In this document: positions 3,201-17,171 of the stretch, in pieces
Layout: every line of letters begins with the position of its first letter
How positions within the stretch are numbered: the first letter of the stretch is position 1
Assembly: GCA_030740435.1 (NCBI GenBank)
Contig: JASLXG010000048.1
Location: forward strand, 7,701-71,700
Direction: 5' to 3'
DNA length: 64,000 bases
From: Alphaproteobacteria bacterium
GTDB taxonomy: Bacteria > Pseudomonadota > Alphaproteobacteria > UBA2966
Made by a program: the position numbers and the translations under genes
Notes under the pieces: model-generated
Seen by the model: the letters and a program-made list of their open reading frames with translations, nothing else
Databases searched by the model: none
What the model was told of the DNA's origin: nothing

Positions 3201-4421
3201 TCAAGCGGCCTGGGCCACTATGCCGCCCCGGCCCTGGCGGCGCTCGCGGCCCAGCAGCATGCCGATGATGACCAGATGGCCGATGTTGAAGACCACGCCC
3301 AGCGCGAAGGCCCACTGGTAGGAGGCCCAAACGTCGAAGACGAAGCCGCCCAGCCAACCGCCCAGACCGGCGCCCACGGTCCCGAACAGCATGATCACGC
3401 CGATCCGCCAGCCGCTTTCGGCGGCGGCAAAATGGTCGCGGATGATCAGGGTGTAAAGCGGCACGATGCCGCCAAAGCTGAGGCCAAACAGGACCGACAA
3501 GAGGTAAAGCCCGGCCAGGCCGTCGACGAAGAGATAAAAAGACAGCACCAGGGCCTGAAAACCCGAAGCCACGAGCATCGCCTTAAAGGCGCCGATGCGA
3601 TCGGCCAGCAGCCCGAAGGCCAGCCGGCTGGCGGTGCCGAAGGCCAGCAGCACGGCCAACATCTCGGCCGCCCGGGCAGTCGGGTGGCCGAGATCGCTGG
3701 CATGGGCGACGATGTGCACCATGGGCAGCGCCATGGGCACGCAACAGGCCACGATGGCCAGGCACAAGAGACCGAAGAGCAGGTTGAGCGGGAACTCCAG
3801 CGGTCGCTCGCTGCCCGCCCCGGCCGCCTCGGTCGCCGCCGCTTGCATCGGCCGCCGGCGGCGCAGCAGCAGGCAAAGCGGCAGCATGGCAACCACTACC
3901 AGGCCATACCAAAGATAGGTCTCACGCCAGCCCGTCTCGTCGATGGAGTAACGAAAAACAGGCGGCCACAAGGCGCCGCCGAGGCTCTGGCCGCTGATCA
4001 CCATGGCCACGGCCAGGCCGCGGCGGCGTTCGAACCAGTGCGTGATATTGGCCACCAGCGGCGCGAACAGGGCGCCGTTGCCGAAAAAGCCGAGCAGCAA
4101 GGCCTGGGCCAGAACGAAGGTCAGCGGCCCGCTGCTGGCCCACACCGCCAACGCCCCCAGCCCGAGGCCCAAGCTTCCCACCAGCGCCGGTCCGAACATG
4201 TCGGCCCGGTCCGACCAGCGGCCGAAGACGATGCCGCCGAGGCCAATGCCCAGCATCAACAGGGCATAGCCAGCCGAAGGCACCCAGCGCGGCACGGCCA
4301 GGTCCAGCGCCACCGGCTTGAGGGCCACGACGATGCCGTACATGCCGCCGCTGGCCAGCACCATGAGCAGCAGCGAACCGCCCGCCACCGCCCAGGCATA
4401 GCCGCGATCAGTGGCGCTCAA
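3201..4421 (-). CDS. MFS transporter (paralog of the adjacent MFS gene)
   Basis: 406 aa polytopic membrane protein. It is collinear in sequence with the 1945..3192 product (RGYAW..., VPRWVPSAG..., FRY... blocks shared). Its start codon overlaps the stop of the upstream acyl-CoA synthetase by 4 bp. Confidence 0.75.
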   Translation of the reverse strand: MSATDRGYAWAVAGGSLLLMVLASGGMYGIVVALKPVALDLAVPRWVPSAGYALLMLGIGLGGIVFGRWSDRADMFGPALVGSLGLGLGALAVWASSGPLTFVLAQALLLGFFGNGALFAPLVANITHWFERRRGLAVAMVISGQSLGGALWPPVFRYSIDETGWRETYLWYGLVVVAMLPLCLLLRRRRPMQAAATEAAGAGSERPLEFPLNLLFGLLCLAIVACCVPMALPMVHIVAHASDLGHPTARAAEMLAVLLAFGTASRLAFGLLADRIGAFKAMLVASGFQALVLSFYLFVDGLAGLYLLSVLFGLSFGGIVPLYTLIIRDHFAAAESGWRIGVIMLFGTVGAGLGGWLGGFVFDVWASYQWAFALGVVFNIGHLVIIGMLLGRERRQGRGGIVAQAA

Positions 4422-9209: not shown

Positions 9210-10721
9210 ATGACAGAAAATCTCTACGCCCTCTTCGAGAGTCGTTTTCCCGCCGACCGTGGCGCCACCTTCCTCGACGCCCTCGACGGCCGGGTGTTCT
9301 CCTACGCCGATCTCGAAGACTGGACGGGCCGTCTGTCGCGGCTGCTGGACAAGACCGGCGTGGGCCTGGGCGATCGCGTGCTGGTGCAGGTCGAGAAATC
9401 GCCGGCCGCGGTCATGCTTTACCTCGCCTGCCTGCGCCACGGCGCCGTCTTCGTGCCGCTGAACACGGCCTACACGGCCCGCGAGGTGGCATTTTTCGTC
9501 AATGATGCCGAACCGGCGCTGGTGGTCTGCGATCCGGCCCGCCGGGAGGAGACCGCCGAGCTTGCCGGTAGCGCCCGGGTGCTGACGCTGGACGCCACCG
9601 GCCAGGGCACGCTGTCCGAGGGGACGAAAGCCCTGGACGGTGATGCCCCGGTGGCCGAACTGGCGGCCGACGACCTGGCTTGTATCCTCTATACCTCGGG
9701 CACCACGGGGCGCTCGAAGGGCGCCATGACGAGCCACGGCAACCTGGCCGCCAACGCCCTCGATTTGCACCGCATCTGGGGCTTCGAAGCGGCCGACGTG
9801 CTGCTCCATGCGCTGCCCATATTCCACGCCCACGGCCTTTTCGTGGCCCTCAACACGACGCTGCTCAACGGTAGCGGTATGCTTTTCCTGCCCCGTTTCG
9901 AGGCCACCGAAGTGGTGCGGCTGTTGCCCCGGGCAACGGTCATGATGGGCGTGCCGACGTTCTACACGCGGCTGCTGGCCAGCCCCGATTTCACGGCCGA
10001 GCTCTGCCGTCACATGCGGCTCTTCATCTCGGGCTCGGCGCCTCTGCTGGAGGAAACCTTCGAGGCCTTCGAAGCGCGCACCGGGCAACGCATTCTGGAG
10101 CGTTACGGCATGACCGAGGCCGGCATGATCACCTCCAACCTGCTGGCCGGCGAACGCCTGGCCGGCAGCGTCGGATTTGCGCTGCCCCAGACCGAGGTAC
10201 GCGTCGCGGACGAAAACGGCGGCGTGCTGGGCCCGGACCAGATCGGCGTTCTCGAAATCAGCGGCGCCAACGTCTTCCAGGGCTACTGGCGGCTACCCGA
10301 AAAGACGGCCGAGGAGTTCCGCCCCGACGGCTGGTTCATCACCGGCGACATGGCGCGCCAGAATACCGAGGGCCGGGTGACCATCGTCGGCCGGACCAAG
10401 GACCTGGTGATCTCGGGCGGCTTCAACGTTTACCCGAAGGAGGTCGAACTGCTCATCGACGAGCTCCCTGGCGTCGCCGAATCGGCGGTCATCGGTCTGG
10501 CGCATGCCGATTTCGGCGAGGCCGTGACGGCCGTCGTGGTAGCCGGAGACGAGGCCCCGGCGGAGAGCGAGATCATCGCCGGGCTGAAAGCGCAACTGGC
10601 TGCCTACAAAGTGCCCAAGCGGGTTGTCTTCGCGGCGGAGCTGCCACGCAACGCCATGGGCAAGGTCGAGAAGAACCACCTGCGTGAGAGCTACGCCGGA
10701 CTTTACGAGGGCGCCAAATGA
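9210..10721 (+). CDS. matB: malonyl-CoA synthetase
   Basis: 503 aa. Strong similarity to rhizobial MatB (VLVQVEKSPAAVMLYLACLRHGAVFVPLNTAYT, ILYTSGTTGRSKG, GWFITGD, PRNAMGKVEK). Confidence 0.75.
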   Translation: MTENLYALFESRFPADRGATFLDALDGRVFSYADLEDWTGRLSRLLDKTGVGLGDRVLVQVEKSPAAVMLYLACLRHGAVFVPLNTAYTAREVAFFVNDAEPALVVCDPARREETAELAGSARVLTLDATGQGTLSEGTKALDGDAPVAELAADDLACILYTSGTTGRSKGAMTSHGNLAANALDLHRIWGFEAADVLLHALPIFHAHGLFVALNTTLLNGSGMLFLPRFEATEVVRLLPRATVMMGVPTFYTRLLASPDFTAELCRHMRLFISGSAPLLEETFEAFEARTGQRILERYGMTEAGMITSNLLAGERLAGSVGFALPQTEVRVADENGGVLGPDQIGVLEISGANVFQGYWRLPEKTAEEFRPDGWFITGDMARQNTEGRVTIVGRTKDLVISGGFNVYPKEVELLIDELPGVAESAVIGLAHADFGEAVTAVVVAGDEAPAESEIIAGLKAQLAAYKVPKRVVFAAELPRNAMGKVEKNHLRESYAGLYEGAK

Positions 10722-11605
10722 CCACCATCGGCCTCCTGGGCACGGGCGACATGGGCGCCGCCGTGGGCCGGGCGCTGGGCGGCCACGGCCACCGCCTCGT
10801 CACTTCGCTGGCCGGGCGCAGCGAACGCTCGTATGCCCTGGCGGTGGCGGCCAGCATCGAGGACGCCGGTGATCTGGCGGCTTTGATGAGGCAATCCGAG
10901 TTGGTGCTGTCGATCCTGCCGCCGGCGGCGGCGCTGGAGGCGGCCGCCCAGGCCGCTACGGCGATGGCGAGCCCGCTTCCCACCTATGTCGACTGCAATG
11001 CCGTGTCGCCGGCGACGGCTACGAAGATCGCGGCGCTGCTGCAGGCCGTGGACGCCCCTTTCATCGACGGCTCCATCATCGGCGCGGCACCGGGCAAAGG
11101 CGTACCGCCGCGCTTTTTCGTCAGCGGCGCCGACACCAGCGCCATGCAGGCCCTCGACGGCCAGGGCATCGACGTGAGGGCGCTGGGCTCCAGGCCGGGC
11201 CAGGCCTCGGCCCTCAAGATGTGCTACGCCGGGCTGACCAAAGGCACCTTCACGCTGCATACGGCAGTGCTGTTGGCGGCTCATAGACTGGGTCTGGAGA
11301 GCGAGCTGCGGAGCGAGCTGGAGTACAGCCAGGCCAAAGTGCTCGAACGCATGACCGCCATCGTGCCCTGGCTGGCGGCCGATGCCGGGCGCTGGATCGG
11401 CGAGATGGAGGAGATCGCCGAGACCTTTGCCGGGGTCGGCCTGACGCCGGACTTCCACCGCGCCGCGGCCCAGGTCTTCGCGCTGCTCGACGCCACTCCG
11501 CTGGCCGCCGAGACCCGCGAGAGCCGCGCTGCCGAACGCCGCCTCGAGGACGCCATCGCCATCTACGCCAAGGCCCTCGATGAGCCGGACGCTCCCGGGA
11601 CCTGA
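10718..11605 (+). CDS. NAD(P)-binding 6-phosphogluconate/3-hydroxyisobutyrate dehydrogenase-like oxidoreductase (DUF1932-type C-terminus)
   Basis: N-terminal Rossmann motif IGLLGTGDMGAAVGRAL. ATGA overlap with matB stop suggests co-translation. Confidence 0.55.
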   Translation: MTTIGLLGTGDMGAAVGRALGGHGHRLVTSLAGRSERSYALAVAASIEDAGDLAALMRQSELVLSILPPAAALEAAAQAATAMASPLPTYVDCNAVSPATATKIAALLQAVDAPFIDGSIIGAAPGKGVPPRFFVSGADTSAMQALDGQGIDVRALGSRPGQASALKMCYAGLTKGTFTLHTAVLLAAHRLGLESELRSELEYSQAKVLERMTAIVPWLAADAGRWIGEMEEIAETFAGVGLTPDFHRAAAQVFALLDATPLAAETRESRAAERRLEDAIAIYAKALDEPDAPGT

Positions 11606-11707: not shown

Positions 11708-12427
11708 GTGACCGAGATCGACGACAGGGCGTTAGCGAACATTGGCCTCTTTGAGAGCCTGACCAGCGACGAGGTGGAGAAGTTGCAGCGCCGCAGCGCC
11801 TGGCGGCGCTTTGTTCCCAACGAACAGATCCTCGACCGCATGAGCGCCAACCAGGAGGTGTTCTTCGTCGTCGAGGGCGCCGTGCGGGTGGTCAACTATT
11901 CGCTGACCGGGCGCGAGGTGGCTTACGCCACGGTACGCGCCGGCGGCTATTTCGGCGAACTGGCGGCGATCGACGGCGAGCCGCGCTCGGCCAGCGTGGT
12001 GGCCACCGAGAACTGTCTGTTGGTCAAGCTGCCGCCGAACGTCTTCATCGAGCTTTTACAAAACTATCCAAGAATCTCGCTCGACGTCATGCGCCGCCTG
12101 ACACAGATCGTGCGGCGTTGCGACAACCGCATCATGGATCTCAGCACCCTAACCGCCATCCGCCGGGTCTATGTCGAACTGCTGCGGCTTTGTGAGCCCG
12201 ATCCGGCCTCACCGGGCGGCTTCATTATCCGGCCGCTGCCGACCCACAGCGACATCGCCGCCCGGGCCAGCACCACGCGCGAGACCGTGGGCCGGGTGAT
12301 CGGGCAGTTGGCCGGCGACGAGATCGTGGTACGCAAGCCACGCACCCTTTTTATCCGCGACCGCGACCGGCTCGAACTGCTGGCCGAAACCATCGACATC
12401 GAACGCGACGAAGAACTGGCTCGTTAA
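11708..12427 (+). CDS. Crp/Fnr family transcriptional regulator
   Basis: GTG start. cNMP-binding-like N-terminal domain and C-terminal HTH (RETVGRVIGQL). Confidence 0.75.
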   Translation: MTEIDDRALANIGLFESLTSDEVEKLQRRSAWRRFVPNEQILDRMSANQEVFFVVEGAVRVVNYSLTGREVAYATVRAGGYFGELAAIDGEPRSASVVATENCLLVKLPPNVFIELLQNYPRISLDVMRRLTQIVRRCDNRIMDLSTLTAIRRVYVELLRLCEPDPASPGGFIIRPLPTHSDIAARASTTRETVGRVIGQLAGDEIVVRKPRTLFIRDRDRLELLAETIDIERDEELAR

Positions 12428-12568
12428 GGGCCTTTTCAAGTTCGACAAGATTCCATCGTCGTCGTGATAGCGATCACAGACGAGCACCCGTTCTGCACCT
12501 AGGGTGTGCCCTATCGACGGGCCGCAGACCACGGCAACCCCCACCGCGCAGCGGTCTCGATACGGGAA

Positions 12569-12618
12569 CGAAATCTAACGAAATTTGACGAAATCTAACG
12601 AAATCTAACGAAACCTAA
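12569..12618. repeat. tandem array of five 10-bp units (CGAAATCTAA; variants CGAAATTTGA, CGAAACCTAA) abutting the RBS of the first small ORF
   Basis: Seen directly: cgaaatctaa cgaaatttga cgaaatctaa cgaaatctaa cgaaacctaa, then cgtgCAGGAGAacatcATG. Confidence 0.8.
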
Positions 12619-12634
12619 CGTGCAGGAGAACATC

Positions 12635-12874
12635 ATGAGTGACCAAAGTTCAGCAGGCGTCGAGCAAGGCGGCAAGTCCGGTGGCGATGCTTCGGCAGGC
12701 GCCGGTGCGGGTTCCTATTCGGGTGCCAGCGCTGGGACCAGCCAGTGGGGCGCCAGTGGCGCCGAAGCCGACACCCACGCCCATTCGGGCGCCGGGGCCT
12801 ATGCCGGTGCCGGGGCTTCCGGCGGTGACGTCACCGACCAGACCCGCATCGGCTCGATCAACGTGAGCTCATAG
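12635..12874 (+). CDS. small Gly/Ala/Ser-rich low-complexity protein (79 aa), hypothetical
   Basis: RBS CAGGAGAA 5-6 nt before ATG. Product MSDQSSAGVEQGGKSGGDA...GGDVTDQTRIGSINVSS has no Cys and no signal peptide. Start trimmed from the track GTG at 12620. Confidence 0.5.
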   Translation: MSDQSSAGVEQGGKSGGDASAGAGAGSYSGASAGTSQWGASGAEADTHAHSGAGAYAGAGASGGDVTDQTRIGSINVSS

Positions 12875-12927
12875 GGCTCCTGAAAGCCGACGAAATTCGC
12901 CGGCAAGCCAAATTGAAGGAGAACATC

Positions 12928-13161
12928 ATGAGTGACCAAAGTTCAGCAGGCATCGAGCAGGGTGGCAAGTCGGGCGGCGATGCCGCGGCCGGCGCCAGCT
13001 CGGAATCCTCATCCTACGCCTCTGCCCACACCTGGCAGTCTGGTCGCCCCATCGATCCCACGGTGGCCGGCTCGGGCGCTTATTCGGGCGCCGGCGCGGG
13101 CGCCTCGGGCGGCGACGTCACCGATCAGACCAGCATCGGTTCGATCAACGTCAGCTCGTAA
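12928..13161 (+). CDS. small Gly/Ala/Ser-rich low-complexity protein (77 aa), paralog of 12635..12874
   Basis: Same RBS/start context (GAAGGAGAACATCATG). N-terminal 19 aa and C-terminal ~20 aa are near-identical to the first copy, while the middle diverges. Confidence 0.5.
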   Translation: MSDQSSAGIEQGGKSGGDAAAGASSESSSYASAHTWQSGRPIDPTVAGSGAYSGAGAGASGGDVTDQTSIGSINVSS

Positions 13162-13232
13162 AAATCCTGAGGATTTCTCCTCTTCATTACGTGTCTTTTG
13201 GTAAATCTTCCTTATTCCTCCCTGTGACTTAA

Positions 13233-13262
13233 AGCCCCGCCCCAGTGGCGGGGCTTCCTTTG
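13233..13262 (+). terminator. rho-independent terminator-like hairpin after the small-ORF pair
   Basis: AGCCCCGCC-ccagt-GGCGGGGCT (9-bp GC stem) followed by TCCTTTGT. Confidence 0.5.
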
Positions 13263-13502
13263 TCGCCAACGCCTATTGCTGATTCCCCTTGCTTTTTTCG
13301 GTCCACCTGGGTCAATTGGAGAGTGAGGATTCCGCACGCTGGGGACTGATCCGGACTATCGCTATGGAAATCGGCCGGAAACCGCTTCGGCAGTGTGGAT
13401 TCTTGCGACCGGCGAAGCCGCTCCTGGGCGGCCCGCTAACTTTAGAGCGAGGCGGAGCCACGATTGGCGGCCCGCCCAGATAGAAGTGCGAAAGGACTAC
13501 CC

Positions 13503-13712
13503 ATGGCGACGGGAACAGTGAAGTGGTTCAATCCCAACAAGGGCTACGGCTTCATCCAGCCGAGCGACGGATCCCGCGACGCATTCGTGCATATTTCGGC
13601 GGTTGAGAGGGCGGGTCTGAGCTCGCTCGAAGAAGGCCAGAAGGTCGAGTTTGAACTCGTGCCCGGCCGCAACGGCAAATCATCCGCAGAGAACCTCGTC
13701 CTGGTCGACTGA
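13503..13712 (+). CDS. cspA: cold-shock protein, CspA family
   Basis: MATGTVKWFNPNKGYGFIQP...FVHISAV is the canonical CSD with RNP1/RNP2 motifs. Start trimmed to the ATG before MATGTVKWFN. A ~240-nt untranslated leader precedes it. Confidence 0.9.
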   Translation: MATGTVKWFNPNKGYGFIQPSDGSRDAFVHISAVERAGLSSLEEGQKVEFELVPGRNGKSSAENLVLVD

Positions 13713-13875
13713 TCCACCAGAATGGCAACAAGCACCTCGCGTGCCTGGCCCCATTCAGTGCCCATGGCCGGACCAACTGGATTTCGGACATATTTGATCT
13801 CTCGACCCCGACCGTGTGGGGCATCAGGCGGCGTGTCGCCCAGTAACCTGGAAGGCGCCGTTAGAAAGGACCAAA

Positions 13876-14238: not shown

Positions 14239-15900
14239 TCAGGCCGCCACCAGGGGCTGGCCGAAGCCCAACTCGGCACGCACCCGAGCGCAGACCTCGC
14301 CGTGGCTGGTCCCGGCCATGACGGCCTCGACCACGGCCCCGAATAGATTCACCCCCTCGTCATGGCAAGCCCGGGCCAGAGCGTCCAGCGCGCGCTGCAC
14401 GGCGGCTTGGTCGCGATCACGTTTGAAAGCCTCAAGCCGGGCCAGATAGGCCTCGATGCTGGCCTCGTCGGTGCGTGGCAGCGGCGGCGGGCGTTCGTCG
14501 GCGGCCGCCACTTGGTAGGCGTTGACGCCGACCATGACCTCCTCGCCGCGCTCCAGCCGCTCCTGAAAGGCCTGGGCGGACTTGCCGATGATTTGCTGCA
14601 CCAGTCCGCTCTCGACGGCGGCGAACATGCCGCCTGCCTCGTCGATGCGCGCGATCACGGCGGCGATCTCGGCCTCCATCTGATTAGTCAGTGACTCGAC
14701 GTAGTAGGAGCCGCCGAAGGGATCGATGACGTCGTCGAGATGGGCCTCGGAGAGCAGAATGTTCTGGCTGGCGACGGCGATCCGGGCGGCTTCCTCGGTG
14801 GGCAGGCTGAGGGCCTCGTCGTAGCTGTCGGTGTGAAGCGACTGCAGGCCGCCACAGATCCCGGCCATGGCCTGGACGGCCACGCGGGCGACGTTGTTCA
14901 AGGGCTGCTGGCGCGTCAGGTCGGCACCCGAGGTCTGGCCATGGAAGCGGAAGCGCCGGGCGCGTGGGTTGCGGGCACCGAAGCGTTCTCCGGTGATGCG
15001 GTGCCAGAGCCGGCGGCCGGCGCGGAACTTGGCGACCTCTTCGAAAAAGCTGATGGAGATGTCGAAGAAAAAGCTGAAGCCGGGCAGGAAATCATCGGGC
15101 TGGTGGCCCCGTGCCACCATGTCGTCGGCGTACTGGATGGCGGAAGAAAGGGTCAGCCCCATGGCTTCGGCCGGCGTCGCCCCGGCCTGCTGCATGTGCT
15201 GGCCCACCACCGACAGCGCGTTCCAGCGCGGCACCTGGCTTCCCATCCACTCGATGTGGTCCAAGAGCATGCGCCGCTGGGCCGCCAGGGGCAGCCGGAA
15301 ATACATGTGCAGTGCAACGAAATGCGAAAGATAGTCCGACTGGTTGGTGGTGCCGGTCAGGCTCGACCAGGGCAGGCCGCGGTCGCGGGCCACCTTCAGC
15401 ATCATGGCCGACAGCGTGTAGGGCGCGGTATCGCCCAGACTCAGCGTCATCTCGTCGAAGGCCAGGCCGTCCAGGCAGCTCGCCATGTCGTCCGAGGTGT
15501 TGATGACGACACCGCAGTGGCCCAGCTGTTCTGGCTCGACCTGGTCGGCATCGTAGCCCCGCATATGCGTCGGACAGGGTGCAATGAAAAGTGTATTGAG
15601 GCCGGCCTGGCAGAGCGTGCGGATGCGGGCGTTGAAGTCCTCGGGCAGGCCCAGGCCGACGACGTGGCGCCGGTTCCAGCTGCGGCCACGGTTCATCGCC
15701 GGGTAGATGCCGCGGCTGGTCGGCGCCTGGCCGGGATAGCCGAGATCCTGGTCGTAGCGCGAGGAATCCCAGTCCTCGGGCGTATAGAGCGGCTTGACCT
15801 CCAGGCCCGAGCGGTTCCGCCGCGCCACCTCGTCGGGTAGTTGGGCTCGGTAGTCTTCCCGCCAGCGTCGGCGCGCCCGGGATTTGACGGCATCGTTCAT
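14239..15900 (-). CDS. methylmalonyl-CoA mutase family protein, catalytic (N-terminal TIM-barrel) subunit without a B12-binding domain
   Basis: 554 aa. Start trimmed to MNDAVKSR. Mutase-family blocks ([51 protein letters not shown]...). No cobalamin-binding domain in this ORF or in neighbours. Confidence 0.8.
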
Positions 15901-16073
15901 CGGCTCCCCTCCGATGTTGCTGCGACCAGCGAAGCACAGTCGCGGCACATTTTCCAGCGCTTCCCGAGGCCTGAAAGAGCAACTTGCCCAGGCCCGCCAA
16001 TCGCCTAAGATGTGGGACGACACCGCGGGGCACGAAACCGGCGGTGGACAAAAATTACTCGGGGAGATAACCC

Positions 16074-17171
16074 ATGAAACGTCGTACATTTGTCAAAGCC
16101 GCTGCGGCCGGTGTTGCCACCGCCGCCGCGGCCTCGAGCTTTCCGGCCCCCGCCCTTTCGCAGGGCAAGAAACGGTGGAAGATGGCGCTGACCTGGCCCG
16201 CCAACACGCCGGGCCTGGGCCTGTCGGCACAGCGCGTCGCCAAACGCATCGAGATGTTCACCGAAGGCAAGATCAAGATCAAAGTCTATGGTGCGGGCGA
16301 ACTGGTACCGGCCTTCGAGAGCTTCAATGCCTGTTCGGCGGGCGACGTCGAAATGTACCAGGCTGCCGAATACTATTGGCAAGGCCACCACAAGGCCTTC
16401 AATTTCTTCACCACCGTGCCCTTCGGCCTGACCGGATCCGAGCACTACGCCTGGATCAACTTCGGTGGCGGCCAGGAGCTCTGGGACGAGCTTTCGGCCC
16501 AGTTCAACCTGAAAGGTTTCGCCGGCTCCTGGACCGGCGTGCAGATGGGCGGCTGGTTCCGCAAGGAGATCAACACGATGGATGATCTCAAGGGACTGAA
16601 GTTCCGCATGCCCGGCATCGGCGGTGAGGTACTGCGCCGCCTGGGCGTCGCCGTGGTCAACCTGCCCGGTGCCGAGGTCTTCCCGGCGCTCCAGGCCGGC
16701 ACCATCGACGGTACCGAATGGGTGGGGCCGTGGCTTGATCTCAATTTCGGTTTCTACAAGGTCGCCAAGTACTTCTACACCGCCGGTTTCCATGAGCCCG
16801 GCACCGTCGGCAGCTTCGGCATCAACAAGAAGGTCTGGGACGGCCTGTCCGACAGCGAACGCGAGATCATCACCACGGTGATCCAGGCCGAAGGCCAGTT
16901 ACAGACATCGGAATTCCGGGCTCGCGATCTGGCCTCGCTGCATAAACTGGTGTCCGAGCACGGCGTACAGGTGCGCAACTTCACCAACGAGATGTATCGC
17001 GAGTTCGGCCGCCTGTCGGGCGAAGTCGTCAAGGCGATGGCGGCCGGGGATCCTCTGACCAAGAGGGTCTATGACAGCTATGCGGGCTTCCGCAAGGGCG
17101 CCATTGCGCTTTCCAAGATCCAGGAGGGCAAGTACCTGCGAGCCCGCGAACTGCCGTTCAAATGGTCCTAG
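16074..17171 (+). CDS. TRAP transporter substrate-binding protein (DctP family) with Tat-type signal
   Basis: [21 protein letters not shown] is a twin-arginine signal; DctP-family body. Confidence 0.85.

What the first reader, a model, noticed from the sequence alone, without database searches (positions are those of the whole stretch)
12560..13265. Tandem pair of small Gly/Ala/Ser-rich paralogous ORFs led by a 10-bp x5 direct-repeat array, immediately upstream of cspA
Two adjacent ~78-aa ORFs share near-identical 19-aa N-termini (MSDQSSAGxEQGGKSGGDA) and ~20-aa C-termini (GGDVTDQTxIGSINVSS). Their low-complexity G/A/S cores diverge, a conserved-ends/variable-middle pattern. Both have strong RBSs, no Cys, no signal peptide and no TM. 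The first is fronted by five head-to-tail 10-bp units (CGAAATCTAA) ending 5 bp before the RBS. One repeat per helical turn suggests a same-face protein-binding array or phase-variation-like element. The second copy lacks the array. A GC-hairpin terminator follows, then the long-leader cspA gene. The GGKSGG segments loosely resemble KGG-repeat general-stress proteins (YciG type), but I cannot assign a family. This is the most novel-looking element in the window.
Basis: seen in the sequence. Interest (0 to 1): 0.75.

Follow-up and report, generated by a model that had tools for sequence, protein, structure and literature searches.

The report
Dispersed precursor genes of a modified secreted peptide
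The two small glycine-rich genes are real and belong to an undescribed peptide family that, in relatives, sits beside a ring-forming ATP-grasp enzyme and a leader-cleaving export pump, so they are most likely "orphan" precursors of a secreted modified peptide; the 10-bp repeat in front of them varies in copy number between natural populations.

Summary
Observation confirmed. ORF A (12635-12874, 79 aa) and ORF B (12928-13161, 77 aa) are 73% identical paralogues, and the 10-bp x5 array (12569-18) is the strongest tandem repeat in the window. Both ORFs are under purifying selection in this frame (for example 18 synonymous against 3 non-synonymous codon changes versus the sister species). No Pfam or NCBIfam family matches, including KGG.

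In close relatives and in Skermanella, Magnetococcales, Hyphomicrobiales and Syntrophobacteraceae, family members lie in 1-3 tandem copies next to an ATP-grasp ligase. A profile of that ligase hits the plesiocin macrocyclase PsnB at E=2e-41. The same clusters carry a HlyD adaptor, a cNMP-binding/C39-peptidase ABC exporter with intact catalytic Cys/His, TolC-like proteins, PP2C and FHA proteins.

The window has none of these genes, so its pair is a dispersed copy served in trans. The likeliest identity is graspetide-type, double-glycine-processed peptide precursors; no chemistry has been tested.

The repeat array is a lineage-specific VNTR with 3-6 units in otherwise identical metagenome contigs and one unit in the sister species. 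It lies downstream of a conserved CRP-type box, and its regulatory role is unproven. Linkage to cspA is local synteny only.

The parts
11708..12427 (+). Crp/Fnr-family regulator gene (cNMP_binding + HTH_Crp_2; recognition helix RETVGR). It is a candidate activator of ORF A/B; this is context, not proven.
   Evidence: Pfam cNMP_binding 5.4e-19 and HTH_Crp_2 2e-10; NCBIfam CRP 1.8e-20, below cutoff. Same gene order in L017-L029.
12464..12477 (.). CRP-type palindrome GTGA-N6-TCAC (cGTGATAGCGATCACa).
   Evidence: It lies in the only 18-nt block perfectly conserved between the window and the sister species L029 in a diverged spacer. Only 2 such sites occur in 64 kb, against 0.52 expected. Function is inferred.
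12500..12505 (+). Possible -10 hexamer TAGGGT (TAAGGT in L029). It starts 29.5 nt from the box centre, the class II CRP geometry, which predicts a TSS near 12512.
   Evidence: My reading of the alignment. The sigma-70 consensus scan found no promoter, so this is inference only.
12569..12618 (+). Tandem array of five 10-bp units (CGAAATCTAA type). It is a VNTR, probably within the 5' leader of ORF A.
   Evidence: TRF score 87. There are 3, 4, 5 or 6 units in otherwise identical contigs from different assemblies, and an N-gap at the array in L026. L029 has one unit. The array is predicted unpaired in the RNA fold, z=+2.18.
12624..12629 (+). Shine-Dalgarno AGGAGA of ORF A.
   Evidence: Read.
12635..12874 (+). 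ORF A, 79 aa, 'type A' precursor. Invariant Lys14-x-Gly16-Gly17-Asp18 (GG codons 12680-12685). C-terminal motif GG|DVTDQTRIGSINVSS (12821-12871).
   Evidence: The exact protein is present on many metagenome contigs (the index lists it in 61 blocks of the collection).
12917..12922 (+). Shine-Dalgarno AGGAGA of ORF B.
   Evidence: Read.
12928..13161 (+). ORF B, 77 aa, 'type B' precursor (middle segment HTWQSGRPIDPTVAG). GG codons at 12973-12978. C-terminal motif GG|DVTDQTSIGSINVSS (13108-13158).
13233..13263 (+). GC-rich hairpin plus T-rich tail, the likely terminator of the A-B transcript.
   Evidence: Terminator scan. Conserved in L029. A homologous hairpin follows the type-B copy in the main cluster L041.

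Best explanation
ORF A and ORF B are genuine genes for intrinsically disordered Gly/Ala/Ser-rich precursor peptides of an uncatalogued family.

The family's dedicated machinery lies elsewhere in the genome. It comprises a PsnB/MdnC-type ATP-grasp macrocyclase, a HlyD adaptor, a cyclic-nucleotide-binding/C39-peptidase ABC exporter, TolC-like outer-membrane factors, and PP2C and FHA proteins. The window pair is therefore a dispersed 'orphan' copy of the first two precursor genes of that cluster, served in trans.

Proposed course of events:
1. (Inferred) A and B are co-transcribed from a promoter just downstream of the Crp-like gene, probably activated through the conserved GTGA-N6-TCAC box.
2. 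(Sequence shows) Both are efficiently translated. Each has a strong SD, an AT-rich first ten codons, and an unstructured A-rich leader that includes the repeat array.
3. (Inferred from homology) The ATP-grasp ligase recognises the conserved N-terminal motif (Q-x-G-K-x-G-G-D) and makes side-chain ester or amide cross-links. These use the only invariant donor and acceptor residues: Asp18 and Asp68 as donors, Lys14 and Thr/Ser70 as acceptors.
4. (Inferred) The C39 domain cuts after an invariant Gly-Gly, most simply Gly16-Gly17, which gives a 17-residue leader. The product is exported through HlyD and the outer-membrane factor.

The extracellular role (antagonism, signalling or protease inhibition) is unknown.

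The 10-bp array arose by local amplification of a single ancestral AACGAAAC(C) unit and is a polymorphic VNTR of 3-6 units. At most it tunes expression of ORF A/B quantitatively.
For: Coding status: the codon-position and synonymous/non-synonymous patterns support this frame.

Family: about 12 clusters in 5.8 billion proteins, only 8 hits in the 1.84-billion representative library, and no Pfam or NCBIfam model.

Conserved neighbourhood in close relatives: 2-3 tandem precursors, then ATP-grasp, HlyD, cNMP-C39-ABC, PP2C, FHA, OEP, OEP (L009-L016 and L041-L046).

The same linkage holds in distant lineages:
- Hyphomicrobiales L036, Magnetococcales L037 (3 copies), Skermanella L038 and L049, Syntrophobacteraceae L039, and L047 and L048.
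- Each ATP-grasp homologue examined has a family ORF near it (directly upstream in most loci; about 7 kb away, beyond HlyD and the exporter, in L039).

ATP-grasp identity:
- The profile against PDB gives PsnB 1.8e-41 over the full length. MdnC, MdnB, CdnC, an MvdD-like protein and AMdnB score 1e-16 to 1e-11. RimK scores only 4e-8.
- All 22 homologues best-match the NCBIfam 'ATP-grasp ribosomal peptide maturase' models.

C39 domain: it retains Gln/Cys/His/Asp (QNEEADCAAACL, FHYVVV, ADPA).

Family-wide invariant residues over 25 distinct sequences: K14, G16, G17, D18, G63, G64, D68, I72, G73, I75.

Structure: the AF2 model has no secondary structure and pLDDT 52.6.

Trans arrangement:
- The window has no ATP-grasp, HlyD, PCAT, PP2C, FHA or OEP homologue.
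- MAG GCA_030743775.1 carries both an orphan locus (L004) and the full cluster (L012).
- Window-identical loci and the 90%-identity cluster co-occur in the same assemblies: GCA_024712185.1 (L022 + L053) and ERZ23491264 (L026 + L052).

VNTR. CRP-type box.
Against: - No maturase or exporter is in the 64-kb window, and physical linkage to the same genome is shown only by co-occurrence in metagenome assemblies.
- MAG ARS1032 has four precursor loci, but no cluster was recovered. The MAG may be incomplete.
- The N-terminal region lacks the hydrophobic -4/-7/-12 pattern of classical double-glycine leaders and the hydrophobic leader motif that PsnB and MdnC bind.
- There are two, and in distant members three, invariant 'GG-D' sites, so leader and core cannot be assigned.
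- D65 and T67 of the C-terminal motif are not invariant.
- No cross-link, cleavage, export or transcription has been observed.
- The sigma-70 scan found no promoter.
- The ATP-grasp scores are far below every curated NCBIfam cutoff.
Confidence: 0.68

Rival explanations
1. The peptides are unmodified double-glycine-leader peptides (class II microcin-like bacteriocins or secreted signals). The C39 ABC transporter/HlyD/TolC system cleaves and exports them, and the ATP-grasp enzyme has another substrate or role.
For: They are 75-90 aa, Gly-rich and Cys-free, with an invariant GG at residues 16-17. The PCAT is catalytically intact and comes with HlyD and OEP. Orphan copies lie far from the ligase.
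Against: A family ORF lies beside (usually directly upstream of) the ATP-grasp gene in every lineage examined, even where the PCAT is not adjacent (L036, L047, L048, L049). The ligase is clearly of the peptide-macrocyclase clade. Invariant Lys, Asp and Thr residues are present in the conserved motifs. No immunity-like membrane protein lies next to the window pair.
Confidence: 0.13
2. The peptides are subunits of an extracellular polymer or fibre. The conserved N- and C-terminal motifs of neighbouring subunits would be joined, covalently by the ATP-grasp ligase or by strand pairing, and the Gly/Ala/Ser middle acts as a spacer.
For: The conserved-ends/variable-middle pattern is retained across phyla. 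The composition is silk- or curli-like. There are several paralogues per genome. The C39 domain gives weak hits to FapD and FilB fibre-system peptidases. Clusters carry multiple OEP proteins and large unknown proteins.
Against: There is no precedent for intermolecular ATP-grasp polymerisation of RiPP-like peptides. AF2 shows no strand propensity. The FapD and FilB hits are far weaker than the bacteriocin-exporter hits.
Confidence: 0.07
3. The proteins are cytoplasmic intrinsically disordered stress proteins (hydrophilin or KGG/YciG-like), co-regulated with the adjacent cold-shock gene.
For: They have a hydrophilic, low-complexity composition. A CSD gene lies next to them in the window and in L029.
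Against: There is no KGG (PF10685) or any other Pfam hit at E<=10. A terminator separates ORF B from the csp gene, which has its own ~240-nt leader. The csp adjacency is absent from all other family loci, whereas ATP-grasp/PCAT linkage recurs across phyla.
Confidence: 0.05
4. Concerning the array only: it is a selectively neutral slippage product (a microsatellite-like VNTR) with no regulatory role.
For: There is one unit in the sister species and in the paralogues. Copy number drifts between 3 and 6 among populations. The same 10-mer forms short arrays in about ten unrelated low-GC loci (16 contigs), which is what chance predicts for short tandem repeats in a very large database.
Against: The array sits immediately before the SD of a gene with otherwise tightly conserved translation-initiation signals. 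It forms an unusually unstructured A-rich leader in a 66% GC genome. Unit-sequence variants indicate turnover rather than a single recent event.
Confidence: 0.45

Closest known systems
Graspetides (omega-ester/amide peptides), e.g. plesiocin PsnA2/PsnB and microviridin MdnA/MdnB/MdnC
   Same: The associated ligase is a clear homologue of PsnB (profile E=1.8e-41, full length including the pre-ATP-grasp domain) and of MdnB, MdnC and CdnC. The precursors are small and sit next to the ligase, directly upstream of it in most loci. They have conserved Asp, Thr/Ser and Lys residues and a GG site. PCAT and HlyD are among the commonest graspetide neighbours (PMC8939145; PMC13097080).
   Different: The precursor sequence matches none of the 174 precursor cluster alignments of PMC8939145 held as text. 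There is no hydrophobic leader motif. A long low-complexity G/A/S spacer separates two conserved motifs. There are very few invariant donor and acceptor residues. The clusters carry cNMP-binding, FHA and PP2C accessories. Precursor genes are dispersed over several loci. No cross-link has been demonstrated.
Double-glycine-leader peptides exported by peptidase-containing ABC transporters (class II microcins such as MccV with CvaAB-TolC; NHLP/Nif11 systems)
   Same: The cluster has a catalytically intact C39 domain fused to an ABC exporter, with HlyD-family adaptor and TolC-like OEP. A 17-residue N-terminal segment ends in an invariant GG. The peptides are Gly-rich and Cys-free, of 60-90 aa.
   Different: The leader lacks the amphipathic hydrophobic pattern. 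A second invariant GG-D precedes the conserved C-terminal 15-mer. No immunity gene was recognised. A modifying ATP-grasp enzyme is always present.
HetC of Nostoc PCC 7120 (a PCAT with an N-terminal cNMP-binding domain)
   Same: The domain order is the same: cNMP_binding, Peptidase_C39, ABC_membrane, ABC_tran (PMC10986499).
   Different: The exporter here has two cNMP-binding domains and is clustered with HlyD and OEP genes, whereas hetC has no adjacent membrane-fusion protein gene. The HetC substrate is unknown, and HetC bound ppGpp in vitro rather than a cyclic nucleotide. Only the architecture was compared; homology beyond that was not analysed.
Prochlorosin-type organisation (many dispersed precursor genes served by one maturase in marine bacteria; recalled from my own knowledge, not tested)
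   Same: Several precursor loci per genome lie away from the single maturase/export cluster: four loci in MAG ARS1032, and orphan plus cluster in GCA_030743775.1. The recognition motif is conserved and the middle is variable.
   Different: The enzyme class differs (ATP-grasp, not LanM). Only 5-6 precursors per genome were seen. The C-terminus is conserved rather than hypervariable.
Simple-sequence-repeat contingency loci upstream of genes (e.g. repeat tracts 5' of Neisseria or Haemophilus surface-protein genes; from my own knowledge)
   Same: A short tandem repeat lies directly 5' of a gene for a secreted product, and its copy number differs between natural populations.
   Different: The unit is 10 bp, so helical phase is preserved. 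The array is not in the ORF and has not been shown to lie between -35 and -10. No on/off consequence is evident, and no expression data exist.
KGG-repeat stress proteins (YciG, PF10685)
   Same: They are also small hydrophilic Gly-rich proteins, and these ORFs have a 'GKSGG' segment.
   Different: There is no HMM match at E<=10, and the genomic context is entirely different.

Membership tests
Graspetide (ATP-grasp-modified RiPP) precursor | Genomic association of the precursor family with an ATP-grasp macrocyclase of the MdnB/MdnC/PsnB clade | tested here: met
   Met for the family: there is adjacency in L009-L016, L036-L039 and L041-L054, and the ligase profile hits PsnB at 1.8e-41. It is not met in cis for the window locus, which has no ligase.
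Graspetide (ATP-grasp-modified RiPP) precursor | Conserved acyl donors (Asp/Glu) and acceptors (Thr/Ser/Lys) in a core motif | tested here: met
   Invariant D18 and D68; invariant K14; Thr/Ser at position 70 in all 25 sequences. The number of invariant pairs is small, and the ring pattern cannot be deduced.
Graspetide (ATP-grasp-modified RiPP) precursor | Leader region with a conserved recognition motif for the ligase | tested here: inconclusive
   A conserved N-terminal motif Q-x-G-K-x-G-G-D-A exists. It is not hydrophobic like the motifs bound by PsnB (Phe15) or MdnC (PMC/bioRxiv 10.1101/2021.03.09.434688).
Graspetide (ATP-grasp-modified RiPP) precursor | Side-chain macrolactone or macrolactam linkages in the mature product | not testable with these tools
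   Needs co-expression and mass spectrometry.
Double-glycine (GG) leader peptide / PCAT substrate | Cognate ABC exporter with a C39 domain that retains the catalytic Cys and His | tested here: met
   L041 exporter: Pfam Peptidase_C39 1.8e-28; the motifs DCAAACL and FHYVVV are present. It is in trans to the window.
Double-glycine (GG) leader peptide / PCAT substrate | N-terminal leader of about 15-30 residues ending in Gly-Gly (or Gly-Ala/Ser) | tested here: met
   G16-G17 are invariant in 25 sequences.
Double-glycine (GG) leader peptide / PCAT substrate | Hydrophobic residues at leader positions -4, -7 and -12 (the consensus is from my own knowledge of the family) | tested here: not met
   The window leader is MSDQSSAGVEQGGKSGG: position -4 is Lys and -7 is Gln, and the only hydrophobic residue is Val/Ile at -9.
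KGG-repeat stress protein (PF10685) | Match to the Pfam KGG model | tested here: not met
   Zero Pfam families at E<=10 for both ORFs.
Phase-variable / contingency simple-sequence repeat | Repeat copy number polymorphic between closely related genomes | tested here: met
   3, 4, 5 or 6 units with identical flanks in ten independent assemblies.
Phase-variable / contingency simple-sequence repeat | Repeat placed so that copy number switches expression (in-frame tract, or between -35 and -10) | tested here: inconclusive
   The array is outside the ORF. No sigma-70 promoter was found around it. The inferred CRP-dependent promoter would put the array in the 5' UTR. No expression data exist.
mmgR / alpha-r8 sRNA (Rfam RF00519), for the 13203-13270 element | Score at or above the Rfam gathering threshold (41 bits) | tested here: not met
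   27.8 bits, E=8e-4. The first hairpin is missing; the UUCCUCCCU motif and the terminator hairpin match.

The most novel reading that the evidence does not exclude
The family would define a new graspetide topology and biology, in three parts.

First, the ATP-grasp ligase joins the invariant N-terminal Lys14/Asp18 to the invariant C-terminal Asp68/Thr70 across the variable Gly-rich spacer. The join could be intramolecular, giving a giant ~50-residue macrocycle, or head-to-tail between subunits, giving a covalent extracellular polymer.

Second, export is gated by cyclic-nucleotide and phospho-threonine signalling. The candidate components are the cNMP domains on the exporter, a cyclase-FHA protein, PP2C, and the Crp-like activator beside the window pair.

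Third, the 10-bp VNTR acts as a population-level rheostat of how much of the dispersed precursors is made.
Probability: 0.1. Interest if true: 0.85.

Novelty: new variant of a known kind. Interest (0 to 1): 0.55.

Why it matters
If the reading is right, this is an uncatalogued group of ATP-grasp-modified, PCAT-exported peptides with several unusual traits.
- The precursors are long and low-complexity, and both ends are conserved.
- Precursor genes are scattered over several loci and served in trans.
- The export cluster is coupled to cNMP-binding, FHA and PP2C signalling parts.

The family occurs in abundant uncultured marine Rhodospirillales-like bacteria (Tara and Red Sea assemblies). It also occurs in the cultured genus Skermanella, which makes it experimentally accessible.

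It also serves as a caution for genome mining: an 'orphan' pair such as this one cannot be recognised from its own neighbourhood. The naturally polymorphic 10-bp array is a ready-made allelic series for testing how leader repeats tune expression.

Tried and rejected
1. Pfam and NCBIfam scans of both peptides at E<=10 gave nothing apart from a meaningless TafF hit at E=6.4. The KGG idea was rejected.
2. tblastn of all cluster proteins (ATP-grasp, HlyD, PCAT, PP2C, FHA, OEP) against the window found only a 35-37% paralogue of the methylmalonyl-CoA-mutase-like gene at 14239-16089. The window therefore has no maturase.
3. The sigma-70 promoter scan of 12380-13560 found no sites. I considered a sigma-54 reading of CTGCAC-N5-GTGTG at 12493-12508 and rejected it, because the GG and GC doublets are not both present. 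I also considered an EcfG-type GGAAC...CGTT reading and rejected it because no CGTT lies at the required spacing. A -35-like TTGACG inside unit 2 has no acceptable -10 and is absent from other alleles.
4. Rfam on 12300-13800 found nothing over the array or the ORFs. The cspA-thermoregulator hit (16.6 bits) lies inside the CDS and is noise.
5. The profile search of the 1.84-billion representative library gave 8 hits only, so the family is rare or is masked by its low complexity.
6. The JGI metagenome scan for two perfect repeat units found 16 contigs, all unrelated low-GC organisms and none from this locus. This is chance recurrence of a short tandem repeat, and it gave no additional alleles.
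7. Literature searches found no paper containing the family motifs and none combining ATP-grasp, FHA, PP2C and C39. The precursor alignments of PMC8939145 do not contain the motifs. Its 'cluster 977' with three GG motifs turned out to be a Bacteroidota family. The large table of PMC13097080 is truncated in the held copy, so absence there is not conclusive.
8. AF2 of ORF A gave pLDDT 52.6 with no secondary structure, so no fold search was attempted.
9. An all-against-all comparison of neighbours of orphan loci found only generic histidine kinases and response regulators shared between them. I did not take this as meaningful.
Full report
**1. What is there**

- ORF A (12635-12874, 79 aa) and ORF B (12928-13161, 77 aa) each start 5 nt after an AGGAGA.
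- They are 73% identical overall, with almost identical first 19 and last 19 residues.
- They contain no Cys and are about 60% Gly+Ala+Ser.
- Five head-to-tail 10-bp units occupy 12569-12618 and end 5 nt before the SD of ORF A.
- Tandem Repeats Finder scores this array 87, the best of 85 rows in the 64-kb window.
- A two-unit pattern is found only in the array (plus one 3-mismatch hit elsewhere), against 0.16 chance matches expected.
- Upstream lies a Crp/Fnr-family regulator gene (11708-12427; cNMP_binding + HTH_Crp_2).
- Downstream, after a GC hairpin, lies a cold-shock-domain gene (13503-13712).

**2. The ORFs are real genes**

The exact proteins recur on dozens of marine metagenome contigs. 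Relatives exist in a handful of 90%-identity clusters, all from marine Alphaproteobacteria MAGs or Tara samples.

Nucleotide differences against orthologues fall overwhelmingly on codon position 3 of this frame:

| Comparison | Differences by codon position | Synonymous codons | Non-synonymous codons |
|---|---|---|---|
| winA vs L029A | [2,0,19] | 18 | 3 |
| winB vs L041 copy 2 | [5,3,35] | 30 | 8 |

Between the two window paralogues, the conserved termini differ at 12 synonymous but only 2 non-synonymous codons. The end conservation is therefore selection on the protein, not recent gene conversion. The overlapping alternative-frame ORFs listed are the usual by-product of 66% GC DNA.

**3. 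What the family is linked to**

Neither peptide matches any Pfam or NCBIfam model, including KGG. The genomic context of relatives is informative.

In a sister species (L009-L016), two or three tandem copies (79, 77 and 79 aa, the same A and B types) lie directly upstream of three genes:
- a 326-aa ATP-grasp protein;
- a HlyD-family adaptor;
- a ~1,100-aa protein with two cNMP-binding domains, a C39 peptidase domain and an ABC exporter.

A 90%-identical version of this cluster (L041-L046, L050-L054) continues with a PP2C phosphatase, an FHA/YscD-like protein and two TolC-like OEP proteins.

A scan of one genome per GTDB species found the family in several other lineages, again beside homologues of the same proteins. 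The ATP-grasp homologues are 47-51% identical, and HlyD, the exporter, FHA and PP2C recur. The lineages are:
- Skermanella (a cultured genus);
- Magnetococcales;
- a Hyphomicrobiales MAG;
- a Syntrophobacteraceae MAG.

Three further ATP-grasp homologues chosen from the 65 found each have a small ORF with the family motifs immediately upstream.

Across 25 distinct sequences, the invariant residues are Met1, Lys14, Gly16, Gly17, Asp18, Gly63, Gly64, Asp68, Ile72, Gly73 and Ile75. Thr/Ser is always present at position 70.

**4. Identity of the enzymes**

A profile of 22 ATP-grasp homologues was searched against PDB sequences:

| PDB match | E-value |
|---|---|
| PsnB, the plesiocin macrocyclase (full length) | 1.8e-41 |
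| MdnC | 1.6e-16 |
| MdnB | 1.4e-15 |
| CdnC | 2.9e-13 |
| An MvdD-like protein | 9.8e-13 |
| AMdnB | 1.8e-11 |
| RimK | 4e-8 |

All 22 homologues best-match the NCBIfam 'ATP-grasp ribosomal peptide maturase' models, although far below the curated cutoffs. The enzyme is thus a divergent member of the graspetide-synthetase clade.

The C39 domain of the exporter keeps the catalytic Gln/Cys/His/Asp, so it should cleave a double-glycine site. PCAT and HlyD are the commonest neighbours of graspetide ligases (PMC8939145; PMC13097080). The cNMP-C39-ABC architecture is that of HetC (PMC10986499).

**5. Status of the window pair**

The window contains no homologue of the ligase, adaptor, exporter, PP2C, FHA or OEP proteins and no further family member. 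Dispersed copies are normal for this family:
- MAG ARS1032 has four loci.
- MAG GCA_030743775.1 has an orphan copy (L004) and the full cluster (L012).

Window-identical contigs and the P0014-type cluster co-occur in two metagenome assemblies: GCA_024712185.1 (L022 and L053) and ERZ23491264 (L026 and L052).

The A-then-B order followed by a homologous GC hairpin mirrors copies 1 and 2 of the main cluster.

I therefore read the pair as orphan precursor genes served in trans. Presence of the cluster in the very same genome is inferred, not shown.

**6. How it probably works**

Shown:
- The genes are real and have strong translation signals.
- The first ten codons are AT-rich (GC3 0.50 against 0.74-0.81 for the rest).
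- The predicted peptide is disordered (AF2 pLDDT 52.6, no secondary structure).

Inferred:
- The ligase binds the conserved N-terminal motif and forms side-chain esters or amides using Asp18 and Asp68 with Lys14 and Thr70.
- The C39 domain then cuts after an invariant Gly-Gly, and the product leaves through HlyD and the outer-membrane factor.

Leader and core cannot be assigned with confidence, for three reasons:
- Two invariant GG-Asp sites exist (residues 16-18 and 63-65), and distant members have a third.
- The N-terminal segment lacks the hydrophobic pattern of classical GG leaders and of the leaders bound by PsnB and MdnC.
- Asp65 and Thr67 are replaced in some members.

The extracellular function is unknown.

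**7. The repeat array**

In ten independent assemblies with otherwise identical flanks, the array has 3 units (L024), 4 units (L018, L020/L027, L022, L023), 5 units (window, L021/L028) or 6 units (L017, L019/L025). Unit 2 also varies in sequence (CTAA, CTGA or TTGA). One scaffold (L026) is broken by Ns exactly at the array.

The sister species L029 has a single AACGAAACC unit at the same place. Single ACGAAA(T/C) units lie 27-38 nt before the ATG of other close paralogues. The array is therefore a recent local amplification and a genuine VNTR.

A perfectly conserved 18-nt block upstream contains a CRP-type palindrome, GTGA-N6-TCAC (12464-12477). This is one of two such sites in 64 kb. The adjacent regulator has the CRP-like recognition helix RETVGR.

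The box centre lies 29.5 nt before a conserved TAGGGT/TAAGGT. This is the class II activation geometry and would start transcription near 12512, putting the array in the 5' UTR. That placement is inference: the generic sigma-70 scan found nothing.

Folded as RNA, the leader is less structured than shuffled controls (z=+2.18), and the array is unpaired in the centroid. It may therefore act as an open, A-rich standby region whose length tunes translation. It may equally be neutral. It cannot act as a frame-shifting phase switch.

**8. Comparison with known systems and novelty**

The system works like a graspetide/PCAT biosynthetic system. Membership is supported for the ligase clade and the exporter, and partly for the precursor. 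The defining chemistry is untested.

The precursor family was not found in three places:
- curated HMM libraries;
- the 174 precursor alignments of the 2022 census;
- any searchable paper.

The 2026 RODEO census lists 21,584 predicted graspetides. I could not fully inspect it because the held table is truncated, so prior cataloguing cannot be excluded.

The distinctive features are:
- the two-ended conservation around a low-complexity spacer;
- the dispersed precursors;
- the recurring cNMP, FHA and PP2C parts, plus a cyclase-FHA protein in Skermanella;
- the VNTR.

I rate it a new variant of a known kind.

**9. Verdict**

| Claim | Assessment |
|---|---|
| Observation | Confirmed |
| Stress-protein interpretation | Rejected |
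| RiPP-precursor lead | Supported by comparative context |
| Regulatory role of the array | Open |
| Confidence that the ORFs are genuine genes | About 0.97 |
| Confidence that they are substrates of the ATP-grasp/PCAT system | About 0.7-0.8 |
| Confidence that the product carries graspetide-type cross-links | About 0.6 |

Noticed in passing
window 13203-13270 (+): There is a sub-threshold match to Rfam RF00519 (mmgR / alpha-r8 sRNA): 27.8 bits against a gathering score of 41, E=8e-4. The UUCCUCCCU anti-SD-like motif, GACUU and the terminator hairpin match, but the first hairpin is absent. The block TATTCCTCCCTGTGACTT plus the hairpin is conserved in the sister species L029 while its surroundings diverge. 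It could be a 3'-UTR-derived or independent sRNA sharing the terminator of ORF B.
   Followed up: partly
window 12464-12477, and L029 9871-9884: A CRP-type palindrome cGTGATAGCGATCACa lies just downstream of the Crp-like gene. It sits inside an 18-nt block that is perfectly conserved between species. The regulator has the CRP-like helix RETVGR and no Fnr-type N-terminal Cys cluster.
   Followed up: partly
L041 16449-20981; L037, L038, L039, L047, L049: PP2C phosphatase and FHA/YscD-like proteins are conserved parts of the ATP-grasp/PCAT clusters across phyla. In Skermanella pratensis there is also an adenylate/guanylate-cyclase-FHA fusion. The exporter carries two cNMP-binding domains. Together these suggest phospho-threonine and cyclic-nucleotide control of export. 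No kinase was identified.
   Followed up: partly
L009 7788-10070 compared with L010, L011 and L041-L046: The HlyD-family adaptor varies in length between near-identical clusters (760, 669, 663, 662 and 660 aa). L009 carries a visibly repetitive ~32-residue coiled-coil motif (...SRTRASALKGRILQTEQ.IATARRNQPRIVEQ...), so differing repeat number is the likely cause, though I did not align the variants. This may be a second variable-number repeat in the system.
   Followed up: no
L009 6395-6646: The third precursor copy in this contig is frameshifted: an 83-aa ORF whose C-terminus is out of frame, with the conserved C-terminal motif readable in the +1 frame. The same copy is intact in L010, L012 and L041. 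This is either an assembly error or a pseudogene.
   Followed up: no
L033 about 9890-9910, L040 about 3825-3845, L047 7551-7566: Distant family members are preceded by near-perfect sigma-54 promoter motifs (TGGCACGgagcTTGCT and TGGCACGccatTTGCg). The window locus has no such motif. L047 also has a TGTGA-N6-TCAC box about 310 nt upstream.
   Followed up: no
window 12635-12664 and 12928-12957; same codons in L001, L012, L041: The first ~10 codons (ATGAGTGACCAAAGTTCAGCAGG...) are almost identical at the nucleotide level among paralogues and species. They use A/T-ending codons (GC3 0.50) in a genome with GC3 of about 0.85. This is consistent with selection for an unstructured translation start.
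   Followed up: partly
window 9210-11605 and 14239-16089; L001; L041 2249-8858: Precursor loci repeatedly sit among acyl-CoA metabolism genes: AMP-binding/PaaK-like ligase, methylmalonyl-CoA-mutase-like, B12-binding and Oxidored_FMN. The window mutase-like gene is a 35-37% paralogue of the one next to the main cluster. This could be coincidence in a genome rich in such genes, or a trace of segmental duplication.
   Followed up: no
L055-L070 (JGI metagenome contigs): The identical unit CGAAATCTAA forms 2-4-copy arrays in about ten unrelated loci across 16 low-GC (40-54%) contigs from other organisms. Several are preceded by AAATCTAA and some are followed by a hairpin. I judged this chance recurrence of a short tandem repeat in a very large database.
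   Followed up: partly
window 13263-13502 compared with L029 10660-10946: The cold-shock gene has a ~240-nt conserved leader. L029 carries a 42-nt insertion in it, relative to window position ~13410. The only Rfam cspA-thermoregulator hit is weak (16.6 bits) and lies inside the CDS, so the leader is not the enterobacterial element.
   Followed up: no
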